Positions 27,001-48,000 of a stretch of DNA of 64,000 bases are shown here, piece after piece. This stretch comes from Escherichia coli O157:H7 (GTDB lineage Bacteria; Pseudomonadota; Gammaproteobacteria; Enterobacterales; Enterobacteriaceae). Positions within the stretch are counted from its first letter, which is position 1, and each line of letters opens with the position of its first letter. The DNA lies in NCBI RefSeq assembly GCF_013167455.1, contig NZ_CP038328.1; one strand, written 5' to 3'. The position numbers were made by a program.

Positions 27001-30000
27001 TCTATTGATTATTGGCGGTGAAACTGCAGGCGGCAAAGCGGTGACGGATTCAGTTTTGATCTCTGTGAAGGATAATAAAGTCACAGTACAAAACTAACGC
27101 TTCAGGGCCCCGGTAAAGGGGCCCTGCTATCAATTTGTCATTTCAATTACGCGAAATTTATATGAACGCAATAATATCGCCTGATTATTACTATGTTCTT
27201 ACTGTTGCTGGTCAGTCTAATGCCATGGCGTATGGCGAAGGACTGCCATTACCGGACAGGGAAGATGCGCCTCATCCCAGAATTAAACAATTAGCGAGAT
27301 TTGCGCATACGCATCCCGGAGGCCCGTCATGTCACTTTAACGACATTATTCCACTGACTCACTGCCCACACGATGTTCAGGATATGCAGAGTTATCACCA
27401 TCCTCTGGCAACGAATCATCAAACACAGTACGGCACCGTTGGCCAGGCACTGCATATTGCACGGAAATTACTGCCCTTCATTCCTGATAATGCAGGGATT
27501 CTCATCGTTCCGTGTTGCCGTGGCGGATCGGCTTTTACCGCAGGCAGCGAGGGGACATATTCAGAACGGCACGGAGCCAGCCATGATGCTTGTCGTTGGG
27601 GAACGGATACTCCGCTATACCAGGATTTAGTCAGCAGAACGCGAGCCGCACTGGTAAAAAATCCGCAGAACAAATTCCTCGGCGTATGCTGGATGCAAGG
27701 CGAATTTGACTTAATGACCAGTGACTACGCGTCACATCCTCAACACTTTAATCATATGGTTGAAGCCTTTCGTAGGGATCTAAAACAATACCATTCTCAG
27801 CTTAATAATATTACTGACGCGCCGTGGTTTTGCGGCGATACCACCTGGTACTGGAAAGAAAATTTCCCTCATGCGTATGAAGCTATTTATGGCAATTATC
27901 AAAATAATATTTTAGCTAATATTATTTTCGTCGACTTCCAGCAACAAGGTGCAAGAGGGCTGACGAACGCGCCTGATGAAGATCCGGACGATTTAAGCAC
28001 GGGATATTACGGTTCAGCGTACCGGTCACCGGAGAACTGGACGACGGCACTGCGAAGCAGTCATTTCAGCTCAGCAGCCCGTCGGGGGATTATTTCTGAC
28101 AGGTTTGTAGAAGCAATTTTGCAGTTTTGGCGCGAAAGGTGAGCGTTCATTAATTTGATTTATTCGCATCCATCAGCGCTTTTAACTCCTCCGGCGTGCG
28201 GCACTATAACGACTTCCACAACAAGGAGCCATTTTCTTATACCACTTTCAGTGACCATCCGCTTATGCCACCACCCTCTACGCAACTGTTTGCAGAGCAC
28301 CTTCCCACCGAGTGGATACAGCACTTCCTGACGCTTTCTGCTCATGCGACCGTTCGTCGTCTTAACCTGAGCGTGGATGGCGAAGCGGGGATGAACCTGC
28401 TGGCGCCCGCAGCGCTGTCACCCAGGCGCGTCAGCGCGTGGGGGCCGCCCCGGTGGAATGGCTCTTCCGCCAGACCACACAGACATGGGGCGCGGAACGT
28501 TACCTGAAGGATGACTGGCACGGCCTGCAACTTTTTGCCATTGATGGCGCACAGTTCAGGACACCTGATGAACCCGAGCTGCGTGAATATTATGGCTCTG
28601 CCAACACATCCACTGAGCGGCAGAGCGCCTACCCCGTCATGCGTCTGGTGGCGTTAATGAATCTGGGAATCACATTCTACTGAATGCCATGACCGCGCCT
28701 ACCGGCGGAGCGATACGGCGTGAGGCAACAAAAGCGGCGTCAGAGATCAGCTTTAAGTTCGCGTTCCAGTTTATCGTGACAGAAATGATAGTGCTGGGAA
28801 ACACGGCGTCACCGGGGACTATCCCGAAACGACTGGAGCATCTGCGGGGGCTCTGGAAGTGGTGTTCATAACAAAACGCCCCCGACCATCAAGGGCGAGG
28901 GCGGTTAAGATATCAAAAACCCGTTATCCTGTGAAACACAGTGCCGCCCCGCTTAAGTGAACGGCATTGTGTTTCTGAGGGACCTTAATTTTCCCTGATT
29001 CTCTGACGTTCCTTACCATTGATATTTCCTTCATTCCTCACCAGAGAAATAAAAAATCACTATACTCATCAAAATATGAGATTACCTTTATTCAGGTGAT
29101 CACCTTACTATTTTTTACGGAAAATAAATTATGAATAACAAGAAATCACTGACAAACCACCTGTAAAATGTCAATCATTTTAGTTCAATTGCCTTTGTCA
29201 TGATTATCTTTTTATCGTCCTGACGATACTATTAACAATTGCAATTTTTATACCCCTCCTGAACAAATAGAAAAGAACTAATATATTCGTTTATAATTCT
29301 GGTAATCCTGGCATCATACGTTTAAAACTTAAGATATTTATTTTATCATCATCATGGTTCCAGAGACTATTGGTCAGCTGGAAATGCCAGCCTTTTCGTG
29401 CCAGCTATATTTGTCCAGTGTGTCACCCCATCCAAAAATCATCCACATCCTGACGTTACGTTAGATATAGAGAAAACAGGTTGTACTGTGCAATATGCAA
29501 ACCGCATAAGCGAATATAATTTCTAAGTTGATATTGTCTGGCTGTTGGGAGCTAAGCAATATAAATATCGCCAGTTGCCAGAACGGTTATATAGACCAGG
29601 AGCGTTTCGGCTCCTGGCCTGTTTTGGACATATTATCAGTCAGCCACTAATAGCGGACTAGGGACACCAGATGATGAAACAAACAGCCCTTTTACGGCAC
29701 GGGTTGCAGCCACATGCAGTAACGCGCGCTCATTAAATAATGCATCACGCTGTTCAACGGGATCATCGGATGCTAATGCTTTTATTTCCGGCACAACGCC
29801 TTCGTTAATCCCCACCAGGAACACATACTGGAACTCAAGCCCTTTAATACGGTGCATCGTTGCAACCCGCACGCCAGGGCGTGCATCGCTGTCACCGCTA
29901 TCATTGCCTAAATTAAATGTCTCAATTCCGGCGTCATTCAGTGCTGATGCGTAGCGGTCACAAGCATGTTTAGTACGCGCAGTAATGCAGATATCCTGAG

Positions 30001-45000: not shown

Positions 45001-48000
45001 TCGGGTTGGCGATCGCCGTCGGGTCAAGCATGTTCATCAGGCTGGCAAAACTTTCAGCCTTACCATCATGCGGTGTTGCTGAAAGCATAATCAGCGTATC
45101 GCTGCGCCCGGCGAGCAGTTTTGCCAGTTTACTGCGTAACGAACTGGTTCCACGTTCTGCGACGTTATGGGCCTCATCAATGACAATAATATCCCACCAG
45201 GCATTTTCCAGATGGTGACGATATTCAATGTCTTGTTTCAGCGTATCGATGGAGATAATGGTCTTGTCAAAATAGTGGAACGGGTTGTGGTTGGTTGGGA
45301 TGCGGTTACGCACCTTTTGTAAACCAGCAGAATCCAGGCGGGTCAATGGGATCGCAAAACGGCTCCAGAACTCCTTCTGGAATTGTGTCAGCATCGATTT
45401 AACCGCCAGAACCAGAATACGTTTTCCGCGCCCACGACGGATCAGTTCCGAAACCAGAATACCGGCTTCCAGCGTTTTACCCAGACCAACAGCGTCGGCA
45501 ATGAGTATCCGCTGACGCGGTTGTGCCAGCGCCATCCGCGTAGGATCGAGCTGAAACGGCATGGAATCCATCGCCGCCAGATGACCAAAATGGACTTTAC
45601 TGTCTGTCGGTACGCGTTGGCGTAACTGACTTTCAATATACAACTGTGCCGCTTGATAATTGGCGGATTCATCTTCCACCAAATGCGTTTTTGCGGGATC
45701 CAGGATCTCTACTTTTTGTTCCAGTTTGGTCAGAAATAACCCTTCTTTACCGCGCACAAGCTCTGAAATACCATCGCAGGTCAGCAAATACCCACCATCA
45801 CCACTGTCATCCGCCCGGCGAATACGCCATTCGGCATCACGAATAACCACCCGCATACCAGGTGCATAATTTTGCTTATTCATCGGTTTTTCTGTCTATT
45901 TGGGGCAGTGGCGGTAACGTCATCCTGAAAAATGTGGCGCGGCACACTGCGATAAAAAAGAGGGCCTTAAAGATATCATGAAGGCCCCCGGCAAAGTGAC
46001 AAAATGGGAGGGAATGCGCATAAATTGCGCATGATTTTCAAACAAAAATTATTAAAAAGTGAGCTGGGTCAACTCCCCTGGAAGATATCCCCAGGGGAGC
46101 AATTATTTATCCAGCGATAATATAACTCCTAAGGTCATTACCCGGGGCAACAGCTCGCGCTCGCGTGTTTGCCAGCCGTTCAACTTGCTGCGGTACTCGC
46201 AGGGCAAAATCAAAGAAGGTATCTTCAATACAGCGCCAGTAGCTAAGCCCCATGTCGAGCAGGACATAATGCTGACTGCCATCGCTGAAGGTGACTGTCA
46301 GTTCTCGTCCATGCTCCGTACTCTGGTTATCCCCCGTTAACCAGCTAATTGCTCCCGGCCACGCAGGCCCCAGATATCCTTCTTCAAGTAAAGTGGTCAC
46401 AACCTGCTGACGATCTTCCTCATTAAGCCACGCGTTATAGAGAGCGTCGTGTTGGCGAGAGTTGTAATCCAATTTTTTGACGCAAACAGTGAGGCTGGCG
46501 CGTTCCGCCATTCCCTGTTCAACCAGCTCGGTTAAGATTTCACCTAACAAACGCGCCGTGAATGGGCTATTAAGATAACGATCGCTGTACTCAACATGCG
46601 TTATCTCTTTGTGGCGGGTAAATGCCTGCTTCCAGCCAGCGTGCTGTTGCGTGACTAACGACCAGAAACGCGAACCAAAACCTTCCAGCGGCCCGTCCAG
46701 TTGTTCACAGAGATTGATGCGCACCGCCCCGGTGGGTAAGGCGGGCAGTAAATCTTCTGCACTTAAGGTCTGACCCGAGAAGGTTTTTCCGGACGTTCCT
46801 TTAAGTGTCACTACTGGTGAAGACGCACTTTGTCCCCATAATTCACCAGGTGCAACGGTAGCGCTGTCGTCTGCGGCCCACTGTTGGCTTTGCCCTTCGC
46901 GAGTCACCTGCGCAAGCCAGCGCCCCTTTCCTTGCATGAGCTGCGCAGTGGCAATGGATTTCACTTGTAAGCGACCTCCCGGCATCGCCGCCAACGCGGA
47001 AAGCTGATGTCTGGAGCTATCAGTTAAGTTTGCCAGCGGCGTGGCCACCAGCAACTCAACATTCCCACCGGAGGAGGCAAACTGGAGCAACTCTTTAAAT
47101 AATGGCCATTGGGCAAAGTCCCACTGTTCCTGCGGCCCCGCAAGAACCAGCGAGCAGGAGTCATAAATCTCGCTGTTCAGGCATTGCGCAATACGTAAAC
47201 TCAGAGGGTTAGTTTCAACCCGGCTACCATCGCCGAAGTACTGATATTCTGGCGCGAGGTTAAGTCGCTGCAACCGTACATTGGTAAGCAGGGTTAATGC
47301 ATGGTGACGATCTAATCTGTTGACATAATGCTGACTGTCGTAGCTGAGCAAGCAGTGGTGACAGAATTTATCGCAACTGCAATCGAGCAATTTTCTGGCG
47401 TAATTAAAGACATCAGCCCAATGGTCGATCAATTGCACTGCATAACCTGCACCACCCGCATTATTGTCGTAAATGAAGATGGAATATCCGGTATAGCCAT
47501 TGATATCGCGCGCTTGCTGCGTCGTCACGCCCAGCTCAGTATTTTCGATACCCAATTTATGCGCTAACCCTTCACGCAAAGCGACCGCAAGGGAACGCGC
47601 GGCAACCTCATCACGGATCAACAGGCCATTATCATCATTGAGTTGCAGCTCAACCATATCTGTACGACTGCTATATCCCAACCACAGATCTTTATGCACA
47701 TGACCGTGGCACAATTTATTGCTCCCCTGACGATCGTTACTGCCCCCTCGCAACAGGTAATGCGTATTTTCCCTCTCTGGGTTCTTTAGATTTTCAGGGG
47801 TACGCTGGGGTTGAGTTTGAGATTCTGCCCGACCACATGAGAGGCAAATTGCGTAGCCGTGCCCAAATTCCCCTTCACTGAAGTGGAACAATTCCCCACT
47901 ATGGCTAAAACGGTAACGTCCTAGCCCAGCATCGGGTAAAGAAACCCACACCGAAGACGGTACAAGAACACGTGGATCTTTCCAGGGAAGTTGTGCAGGC

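What the first reader, a model, noticed from the sequence alone, without database searches (positions are those of the whole stretch)
29636..45883. Four-gene SNF2 / PglX-like methyltransferase / DUF1998 helicase / UvrD-like operon: DISARM-like but non-canonical
Four co-directional minus-strand genes with stop-start overlaps or 2-nt gaps (43022/43025, 38088, 31747-31750), so one coupled operon of about 16 kb. The products are an SNF2 helicase (DEAH, QRNGRIDRYGQ), a 1644-aa adenine methyltransferase (CEPAMGSAAFL, NPPW), a 2113-aa DExH helicase with DUF1998 zinc module, and a UvrD-like ATPase. The SNF2 + PglX-like MTase + helicase/DUF1998 combination is the hallmark of class 1 DISARM (drmD-drmMI-drmA-drmB-drmC). 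Here the helicase and DUF1998 functions sit in one giant polypeptide, I see no PLD (HxK) protein, and a UvrD-like gene occupies the terminal position. There is no PglZ or BrxC-like gene, so it is not BREX. Whether this is a described subtype or a new architecture I cannot tell without a database search.
Basis: partly seen in the sequence, partly recalled or inferred. Interest (0 to 1): 0.85.

Follow-up and report, generated by a model that had tools for sequence, protein, structure and literature searches.

The report
ARMADA type II anti-phage operon
The four genes are real and form one operon, but it is the already named and experimentally validated ARMADA type II phage-defence system of E. 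coli O157:H7, sitting beside Druantia III and Zorya II, so it is not a new architecture.

Summary
The window is E. coli O157:H7 O-island 172. The four products carry the same RefSeq accessions (WP_001041505.1, WP_001229642.1, WP_000937974.1, WP_000218177.1) that Bell et al. (bioRxiv 10.1101/2025.09.15.676423) used to define ARMADA Type II (armABCD). That preprint and Li et al. (bioRxiv 10.1101/2025.09.22.677730) showed broad, non-abortive anti-phage defence that needs all four genes and synergises with Druantia III, which lies immediately upstream.

ArmC carries its own C-terminal Vsr-type nuclease. ArmD has an N-terminal RelE-like domain. The helicase is closer to DruE than to DrmA. I confirmed both folds independently.

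One addition I did not find interpreted in the literature I read: ArmB is about 99% conserved between E. coli strains except for two independently reassorting hypervariable blocks behind the catalytic NPPW motif. This points to strain-specific, possibly bipartite, sequence recognition. No methylation motif has been reported. Verdict: already known; low interest as a discovery; mechanism still open.

The parts
43025..45883 (-). armA: SNF2/RapA/BrxHII-like helicase, 952 aa (Walker A K136, DEAH D236)
   Evidence: ORF. Pfam SNF2-rel_dom and Helicase_C. PADLOC DrmD 1.4e-99 and BrxHII 9e-60. NCBIfam DISARM_DrmD scores 349.7 bits, below the 610 cut-off. RefSeq WP_001041505.1 is the ArmA of Bell et al. 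Table S2.
38088..43022 (-). armB: PglX/DrmMI-like gamma-class N6-adenine DNA methyltransferase, 1644 aa (SAM motif G605, NPPW N971)
   Evidence: ORF and motifs. PADLOC REase_MTase_IIG matches full length at 1.7e-286, and DrmMI matches locally at 6e-57. Pfam gives Eco57I and MmeI_Mtase. RefSeq WP_001229642.1.
39315..39782 (-). armB hypervariable block 1 (aa 1081-1236), putative target-recognition subdomain
   Evidence: Identity between seven E. coli alleles is 41-62% here, against 94-100% in the conserved N-terminal (aa 1-1040) and C-terminal (aa 1477-1644) regions. The block reassorts independently of block 2.
38595..39074 (-). armB hypervariable block 2 (aa 1317-1476), putative second target-recognition subdomain
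   Evidence: Identity between alleles is 38-65%. L004 is 98% identical to O157 here but only 62% in block 1. The O157-type variable region is shared at >=80% coverage by 311 of 502 matching genomes.
31747..38088 (-). armC: YprA/DruE-like SF2 helicase, 2113 aa (Walker A K110, DELH D234), with many CxxC zinc modules, MZB/DUF1998 and a three-domain C-terminal tail
   Evidence: ORF. Pfam DEAD aa 84-278, Helicase_C aa 993-1066 and MZB aa 1549-1638. PADLOC DruE3 4.9e-104. Best PDB sequence relatives are DruE structures 9tu7 and 9wae, and YprA 6znp. WP_000937974.1 is the ARMADA II representative in Bell et al..
32662..33054 (-). armC Vsr-type PD-(D/E)xK nuclease domain (about aa 1679-1809), predicted active
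31780..32025 (-). armC terminal module (about aa 2022-2103), homologous to the C-terminal extension of the neighbouring ZorE
   Evidence: BLASTP gives 39% identity over 57 aa. hhalign gives probability 96.9%, E 2e-10 over 77 columns. PADLOC ZorE2 model hits aa 2021-2096.
29636..31750 (-). [quoted passage not shown]
   Evidence: ORF. Pfam UvrD-helicase and UvrD_C. PADLOC GajB 2.4e-36. RefSeq WP_000218177.1.
31406..31750 (-). armD RelE/ParE-fold domain (about aa 1-115)
45884..46106 (-). druE-armA intergenic region: hairpin after the druE stop, then a promoter-like site (46002 to 45975)
   Evidence: Sequence read. Consensus scan, which is a pattern match only. Bell et al. obtained defence from the cluster cloned under its native promoters.
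29596..29617 (.). GC-rich hairpin 19 bp downstream of the armD stop, a likely operon end
   Evidence: (8-bp stem, 6 GC pairs) and sequence. The pattern scan scored it on the + strand (T-run there); on the arm strand no T-run follows it. Pattern match only.
46107..55780 (-). Context, not part of the four-gene system: Druantia type III druH (52421-55780) and druE (46107-52430)
   Evidence: PADLOC DruE3 and DruH3 match full length with E = 0. NCBIfam YjiT_fam 1.4e-296. Present at >=80% coverage in 505 E. coli genomes, against 520 for armABCD.
55992..59465 (+). Context: Zorya type II zorA2-zorB2-zorE, divergent from druHE
   Evidence: RefSeq annotation. PADLOC ZorA2 1e-302, ZorB2 2e-104 and ZorE2 4e-176.

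Best explanation
The locus is the ARMADA Type II (armABCD) anti-phage system of the O-island 172 / leuX defence island of E. coli O157:H7.

Shown by others for these same proteins: the operon alone protects E. coli against many siphoviruses, T5-like phages and some podoviruses. It does this without killing or shutting down the cell. All four genes are required, as are the ATPase motifs of ArmA, ArmC and ArmD and the NPPW motif of ArmB. Phages with hypermodified DNA escape. The system synergises with the adjacent Druantia III.

Inferred working model: ArmB, a PglX-like N6-adenine methyltransferase, reads a strain-specific and possibly bipartite DNA sequence through two exchangeable recognition blocks, and probably marks host DNA. 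As in BREX and Type I/III restriction, it also serves as the recognition subunit for restriction. That would explain why losing it abolishes defence rather than causing autoimmunity. On unmodified incoming or replicating phage DNA, the SNF2 motor ArmA and ArmB would license ArmC. ArmC would load on single-stranded DNA like its relatives MrfA, DrmAB and DruE, translocate, and cut with its fused Vsr-type nuclease. ArmD, a UvrD-type motor with a RelE-fold domain, would help process the DNA or additionally attack phage transcripts.
For: Identity: the locus is 100% identical to O157:H7 genomes, and its four RefSeq accessions are the ones used to define ARMADA II. All eight published mutated residues fall on the expected motif residues.

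Function, from the literature: anti-phage activity, essentiality of each gene and motif, and the non-abortive phenotype. Native-host deletions and synergy with Druantia III. Escape of hypermodified T-even phages.

Anatomy tested here: the SNF2, MTase, DEAD+MZB and UvrD domains. Vsr-type nuclease fold with invariant E1689, D1748, D1768 and H1773. RelE fold with invariant E48, R62, R68 and H88.

Sequence-specific recognition by ArmB: there are two hypervariable, independently reassorting blocks behind NPPW, while ArmA, ArmC and ArmD stay 99-100% identical.

Helicase polarity and ssDNA loading are inferred from the relative DruE and from MrfA/DrmAB as summarised.
Against: No methylation motif, nuclease activity, helicase activity or complex has been demonstrated for ARMADA. 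'methylat' occurs zero times in Bell et al., and 2026 papers still list the mechanism as unknown. The SAM-motif mutant G605A lost only part of the defence, so the role of catalysis is not clean. The authors of the EDL933 study favour recognition of DNA structure rather than sequence. The RelE-like domain sits oddly with a non-abortive phenotype. I could not find an O157:H7 methylome that assigns or excludes an ArmB motif.
Confidence: 0.9

Rival explanations
1. ARMADA II does not use methylation to tell self from non-self. Like DISARM DrmAB and Druantia DruE, it would sense a DNA structure, such as ssDNA overhangs, forks or replication intermediates. ArmB would act only as a structural or regulatory subunit.
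For: No methylation has been shown. The G605A SAM-motif mutant is only partly defective. DruE, the closest characterised helicase, is triggered by exposed ssDNA. Li et al. predict structure-based rather than sequence-based recognition because the target range is so broad.
Against: The catalytic NPPW asparagine is essential. ArmB shows the mosaic, recombining hypervariability typical of target-recognition domains, while the rest of the system is invariant. A purely structural subunit would not be expected to show that. Hypermodified phages escape.
Confidence: 0.25
2. The four genes are not autonomous. They would be the distal part of one six-gene system, druH-druE-armABCD.
For: All six genes are co-directional. 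They co-occur in nearly the same number of E. coli genomes, 505 against 520. They travel together on plasmids. They show strong synergy.
Against: armABCD alone on a BAC protects BL21-AI. druHE alone on a plasmid protects MG1655. Single-system deletions each retain partial defence. A 223-bp spacer with a hairpin and a promoter-like site separates druE from armA. ARMADA II and Druantia III occupy separate clades and occur apart in other taxa.
Confidence: 0.07
3. It is a non-canonical subtype of class 1 DISARM.
For: It shares SNF2, adenine MTase and helicase-DUF1998 components. DefenseFinder flags the locus as DISARM I-related.
Against: DrmA and DrmB are fused rather than split. There is no PLD DrmC. 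The DrmD model scores 349.7, below its 610-bit cut-off. The helicase falls with DruE and not with DrmA in model scores and in the published phylogeny. There is an extra ArmD gene.
Confidence: 0.04
4. ArmB is a stand-alone Type IIG restriction-modification enzyme that merely sits among unrelated helicase genes.
For: The PADLOC model REase_MTase_IIG matches ArmB over its full length, E 1.7e-286.
Against: Translational coupling to both neighbours. Strict conserved gene order. Deleting any of the four genes abolishes defence. No nuclease domain was identified in ArmB.
Confidence: 0.02

Closest known systems
ARMADA Type II (armABCD), Bell et al. 2025 bioRxiv 10.1101/2025.09.15.676423; Li et al. 2025 bioRxiv 10.1101/2025.09.22.677730
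   Same: Everything: identical protein accessions, gene order, domain set, genomic island and neighbours.
   Different: Nothing. This window is an instance of the type locus.
DISARM class 1 (drmD-drmMI-drmA-drmB-drmC)
   Same: SNF2 helicase, PglX-like adenine MTase and YprA-family helicase with the DUF1998/MZB zinc module. Broad, non-abortive defence.
   Different: Helicase and DUF1998 are fused. The nuclease is a fused Vsr-type PD-(D/E)xK domain rather than a separate PLD protein. There is an extra UvrD/RelE gene. The helicase belongs to the Druantia/ARMADA clade rather than the DISARM clade.
Druantia type III DruE (adjacent gene; structures 9tu7 and 9wae)
   Same: Giant YprA-like helicase of about 2,100 aa with inserted zinc modules, MZB and a C-terminal nuclease tail. 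It is the best PADLOC and PDB sequence match to ArmC.
   Different: DruE has PLD-like tail domains and works with DruH, with no methyltransferase. ArmC has a Vsr-type tail and works with ArmA, ArmB and ArmD.
BREX (PglX with BrxHII)
   Same: A PglX-like MTase is needed for defence as well as (presumably) modification, paired with a RapA/SNF2-like helicase. Specificity variation is confined to the MTase.
   Different: No PglZ, BrxC, BrxA or BrxB genes. ARMADA has two extra helicases and a nuclease.
Gabija GajB
   Same: ArmD's UvrD-type SF1 core matches GajB models (E 2.4e-36).
   Different: There is no GajA partner. ArmD has a RelE-fold N-terminal domain that GajB lacks.
Type I R-M HsdS / Type IIG-IIL (MmeI family) target-recognition domains
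   Same: Hypervariable recognition segments exchanged by recombination on an otherwise conserved scaffold. Two blocks reassort independently, like HsdS TRD1 and TRD2.
   Different: Here the blocks sit in a 1644-aa MTase inside a four-gene helicase-nuclease system. The recognition role is inferred, not demonstrated.

Membership tests
ARMADA Type II | YprA-like helicase of the ARMADA II clade with fused OB-CON-DUF1998 (MZB) | tested here: met
   RefSeq accession WP_000937974.1 on the 100%-identical locus is the clade representative. Pfam DEAD, Helicase_C and MZB.
ARMADA Type II | BrxHII/RapA-like SNF2 helicase and PglX-like methyltransferase immediately upstream of the YprA gene, in strict order A-B-C-D | tested here: met
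   ORF order and coupling. PADLOC DrmD/BrxHII and DrmMI hits. Pfam.
ARMADA Type II | GajB-like UvrD helicase fused to an N-terminal RelE-like domain | tested here: met
ARMADA Type II | C-terminal Vsr-type PD-(D/E)xK nuclease on ArmC | tested here: met
ARMADA Type II | Anti-phage activity that requires all four genes | not testable with these tools
   Reported for identical proteins from NCTC 12900, ATCC 8739 and EDL933.
DISARM class 1 | DrmA helicase and DrmB (DUF1998) encoded as separate genes | tested here: not met
   A single 2113-aa ORF carries both.
DISARM class 1 | DrmC phospholipase-D nuclease | tested here: not met
   No HxK(x)4D motif in any of the four proteins. The PADLOC, Pfam and NCBIfam rows shown for ArmB, ArmC and ArmD include no PLD family. 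ArmA's PLD-helicase hits align to its SNF2 core only.
DISARM class 1 | DrmD SNF2 helicase at equivalog level | tested here: not met
   NCBIfam DISARM_DrmD scores 349.7 bits, below the curated cut-off of 610.
DISARM class 1 | Helicase belongs to the DrmA lineage | tested here: not met
   DruE models score E 5e-104 to 1e-60. DrmA models reach only E 4e-14, on the helicase C-lobe. The published tree agrees.
BREX | PglZ alkaline-phosphatase-like protein and BrxC ATPase | tested here: not met
   None among the annotated genes of the island. BREX PglX models hit ArmB only weakly, at 25-28 bits against cut-offs of 500-900.
Type IIG restriction-modification enzyme | Nuclease, MTase and TRD in one polypeptide that is active alone | tested here: inconclusive
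   Full-length PADLOC REase_MTase_IIG match, but no nuclease domain detected. The literature shows armB is not sufficient for defence.
Druantia type III | DruH plus a DruE with a PLD-type tail | tested here: not met
   The four genes contain no DruH. True DruH and DruE are the upstream neighbours.

The most novel reading that the evidence does not exclude
ArmB's two independently reassorting hypervariable blocks would encode a bipartite, strain-specific DNA recognition sequence. ARMADA II would then be a reprogrammable, modification-dependent restriction system whose specificity evolves by cassette exchange, as in Type I HsdS. In addition, the roughly 80-aa C-terminal module shared by ArmC and the ZorE variant in the same island would be a common docking or DNA-binding element that couples the island's systems physically. 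I did not find either point stated in the papers I could read.
Probability: 0.35. Interest if true: 0.45.

Novelty: already known. Interest (0 to 1): 0.15.

Why it matters
As a discovery it does not matter, because the system was named and validated in 2025 using these very proteins. It matters in two practical ways. ARMADA II is reported to be the dominant contributor to the unusually broad phage resistance of EHEC O157:H7, which bears on phage therapy and biocontrol. Its mechanism is still unknown. The ArmB variable-block pattern found here gives a direct, cheap test of whether ARMADA discriminates self from non-self by sequence-specific methylation: methylome comparison plus block swaps.

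Tried and rejected
1. Published methylomes. I looked for one that would assign or exclude an ArmB motif. The O145:H28 SMRT data show only GATC and a prophage-encoded CTGCAG. 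This looked like evidence against ArmB methylation. However, armB is a frameshifted, truncated pseudogene in O145 strain RM12367-C1, is split in O145:H28 strain 16003, and carries an IS3 insertion in FWSEC0002. Those data are therefore uninformative, and I did not verify RM13514 or RM13516 themselves. Other methylome papers were irrelevant.

2. A HMMER profile of the ArmD N-terminus against PDB sequences found only UvrD helicases and no RelE. The fold search was needed.

3. The word-index homolog search with the ArmC tail returned only 3 proteins, and a first attempt was out of frame. The exhaustive representative search solved this.

4. ArmB has no PDB sequence relative at E <= 0.01.

5. There are no tRNA genes and no Rfam families in the window.

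6. Promoter and terminator scans are at or near chance level overall: 16 promoter-like sites against 15.2 expected. I use them only as weak support for an arm promoter.

7. I considered and rejected BREX, stand-alone Type IIG R-M, canonical DISARM and a single six-gene Druantia-ARMADA system, for the reasons given under rival explanations.

Full report
OBSERVATION. The junctions are TAA-TC-ATG (2-nt gap), TGATG (1-nt overlap) and ATGA (4-nt overlap). All quoted motifs are present at aa 236 (DEAH), 539 (QRNGRIDRYGQ), 600 (CEPAMGSAAFL), 971 (NPPW) and 234 (DELH). Profile searches confirm SNF2-rel_dom plus Helicase_C in gene 1 and a weak but consistent Eco57I/MmeI-type MTase in gene 2. Gene 3 has DEAD, Helicase_C and MZB, the former DUF1998. 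Gene 4 has UvrD-helicase and UvrD_C. No HxK(x)4D PLD motif exists in any of the four proteins.

IDENTITY. The 16.2-kb block is 100% identical to many E. coli O157:H7 chromosomes and is present at >=80% coverage in 520 of 5,426 complete E. coli genomes. In NC_013008.1 the four products are WP_001041505.1, WP_001229642.1, WP_000937974.1 and WP_000218177.1. A literature search found two September 2025 preprints. Bell et al. (10.1101/2025.09.15.676423) define ARMADA, the 'disARM-related Antiviral Defense Array'. [quoted passage not shown] Their representative ArmC and their Table S2 list the same four accessions. Li et al. (10.1101/2025.09.22.677730) map armABCD to z5899-z5902 on O-island 172 of EDL933. 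All eight residues mutated by Bell et al. fall on the expected motif residues in the window's proteins: ArmA K136 and D236, ArmB G605 and N971, ArmC K110 and D234, ArmD K266 and D454. The window is therefore an instance of the type locus of a named system.

WHAT IS KNOWN EXPERIMENTALLY (literature, not tested here). The operon from O157:H7 strain NCTC 12900 on a BAC protects BL21-AI against 13 of 80 phages. Deleting any one gene abolishes defence, as do Walker A or B mutations in ArmA and ArmC, Walker A in ArmD, and NPPW in ArmB. ArmB G605A and ArmD D454N are partial. Infected cells stay intact and metabolically normal, so defence is direct and not abortive. In ATCC 8739 and EDL933, deletions show that ARMADA II is the dominant system against Drexlerviridae, Demerecviridae and others, and that it synergises with Druantia III. 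T-even phages with hypermodified DNA escape. No methylation motif, nuclease assay, helicase assay or structure has been reported. 2026 papers still call the mechanism unknown.

A full-length Druantia III pair lies 223 bp upstream and co-directional: DruE at 46107-52430 and DruH at 52421-55780, both PADLOC E = 0. Zorya II (zorA2, zorB2, zorE; 55992-59465) is divergent from it. Next come a nanM fragment, a phosphorothioate-dependent HNH endonuclease (59850-60857), a transposase fragment and a degraded integrase. tRNA-Leu, ahr and an intact integrase lie about 10 kb beyond the window's right end. On the left are an IS fragment, a truncated nanS, nanM, nanC and the fim operon. This matches Fig. 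5B of Bell et al., an immobilised element at tRNA-Leu. The druHE DNA occurs at >=80% coverage in 505 E. coli genomes, against 520 for armABCD.

AN ADDITION: ArmB SPECIFICITY BLOCKS. armB DNA matches many E. coli genomes only in pieces. I aligned ArmB from six other strains and one plasmid. The protein is 94-100% identical over aa 1-1040 and 1477-1644. It falls to 41-62% in block 1 (aa 1081-1236) and 38-65% in block 2 (aa 1317-1476). The blocks reassort. L004 and L005 share block 1 (99%) but not block 2 (54%). L004 shares block 2 with O157 (98%) but not block 1 (62%). In the same strains ArmA, ArmC and ArmD are 99-100% identical. The O157-type variable region is shared at >=80% coverage by 311 of 502 matching genomes, essentially the O157/O55 lineage. 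Both blocks lie C-terminal to NPPW, where gamma-class PglX/MmeI-type enzymes carry their target-recognition domain (established knowledge; no ArmB structure was predicted here). Li et al. noted only 'lower conservation of armB'. I read the pattern as evidence that ArmB alone reads a strain-specific, possibly bipartite sequence. This is an inference.

MOST LIKELY MECHANISM. Shown: a four-component, ATP-dependent and MTase-motif-dependent, non-abortive defence. Inferred: ArmB recognises, and probably methylates, a specific motif, and is also required for restriction, as PglX is in BREX and Mod/HsdS are in Type III/I systems. This would explain why armB deletions lose defence and, by inference from their recovery as deletion mutants, are not self-toxic. 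With the SNF2 motor ArmA, unmodified sites would license ArmC. By analogy with MrfA, DrmAB and DruE (3'-to-5', ssDNA-loading), ArmC would translocate and cut with its Vsr-type domain. ArmD would contribute a second motor, and its RelE-fold domain may cleave RNA or be a repurposed binding module. The main rival, at about 0.25, is methylation-independent sensing of DNA structure, which the EDL933 authors favour. The essential NPPW motif and the TRD-like variability argue against it, but nothing excludes it yet.

COMPARISON AND MEMBERSHIP. All sequence-testable defining features of ARMADA II are met. For class 1 DISARM, four defining features were tested and not met: split DrmA/DrmB, PLD DrmC, DrmD at equivalog score (349.7 against 610), and a DrmA-lineage helicase (DruE models E 5e-104 against DrmA E 4e-14). 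BREX lacks support because there is no PglZ or BrxC. PADLOC-DB v2 (2023) has no ARMADA models and would label ArmB 'REase_MTase_IIG' (E 1.7e-286). The 'RM IIG' listed for O157:H7 in Li et al.'s discussion may therefore be ArmB counted twice. I did not verify this.

VERDICT. Real feature, correctly described, correctly sensed as DISARM-related but non-canonical, and already known as ARMADA Type II with experimental validation in this very lineage. Interest as a discovery is low (0.15). The residual value lies in the open mechanism, and in two observations I did not find interpreted in the papers I read: the ArmB block pattern and the ArmC-ZorE shared module.

Noticed in passing
window 46107-55780 (-): A complete Druantia type III system (druH 52421-55780, druE 46107-52430) lies immediately upstream of armA and co-directional with it. 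druH and druE overlap by 10 nt.
   Followed up: yes
window 55992-59465 (+): A complete Zorya type II system (zorA2, zorB2, zorE) is divergent from druHE. This region and druH have about 38-41% GC, against about 47-56% for druE and armABCD. That suggests the conserved three-system cassette is a composite of modules with different origins.
   Followed up: partly
window 31780-32025 (armC aa ~2022-2103) and 59196-59426 (zorE aa 279-355): The last module of ArmC is homologous to the C-terminal extension of the neighbouring ZorE (39% identity over 57 aa; hhalign probability 96.9%, E 2e-10). Several PADLOC ZorE2 models are only about 280 aa and end before this extension, so it may be specific to a ZorE subset. 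It could be a shared docking or DNA-binding element linking the island's systems. I did not see it described in the papers I read.
   Followed up: partly
L002 9001-13909 (E. coli O145 RM12367-C1); hits H78 and H113: In O145 strains armB is a pseudogene: frameshifted with an internal deletion in RM12367-C1, split in O145:H28 strain 16003, and carrying an IS3 insertion in FWSEC0002. ArmA, ArmC and ArmD stay 99.5-99.9% intact. Since armB is essential for defence, ARMADA II is probably inactive in these strains, which the distribution survey counts as carriers. It also makes the O145 methylomes uninformative about ArmB.
   Followed up: partly
L007 (plasmid pQnrS1_005237) 3549-28911; hits H121-H137: The druH-druE-armABCD cassette also sits on 17 PLSDB plasmids (15 E. 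coli, 2 Klebsiella pneumoniae) at >=80% coverage and 97-99% identity. Of all 20 matching plasmid records, 9 are predicted conjugative and 7 mobilizable. On pQnrS1_005237 it lies next to an integrase and IS fragments. This is a transfer route in addition to the tRNA-integrating elements described in the literature.
   Followed up: partly
window 59850-60857 (+): A gene annotated as a phosphorothioated-DNA-binding restriction endonuclease (PADLOC HNH 8.5e-21 and a weak Type IV mREase hit) flanks Zorya II. It would be a fourth, modification-dependent defence gene in the island.
   Followed up: partly
window 26344-26588 and 59689-59933: A 245-bp nanM fragment at the right edge of the Zorya-Druantia-ARMADA cassette is 93% identical to the intact nanM on the left. 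With the truncated nanS (about 27162-27728) and an IS pseudogene (about 28265-28960), it marks the cassette as inserted or recombined into the nanCMS locus.
   Followed up: partly
window 62860-63324 (-): A 154-aa HTH protein matches R-M 'control protein' (C-protein) and capH-like models (E 7e-18). It sits next to two hypothetical genes that run off the window's right end, between the degraded integrase and the intact leuX-proximal integrase. It may regulate another defence module.
   Followed up: no
window 38088-43022 (armB): PADLOC-DB v2.0.0 has no ARMADA models and matches ArmB over its full length to a 'Type IIG restriction enzyme-methyltransferase' model. Automated pipelines of that vintage will mislabel this system as RM type IIG plus stray DrmD, DruE and GajB hits.
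   Followed up: partly
window 1-3912: The left end of the window carries frameshifted pseudogenes of the inverse autotransporter iatD (to about 3205) and kptA (about 3362-3912), according to the RefSeq annotation of the identical O157:H7 sequence.
   Followed up: no
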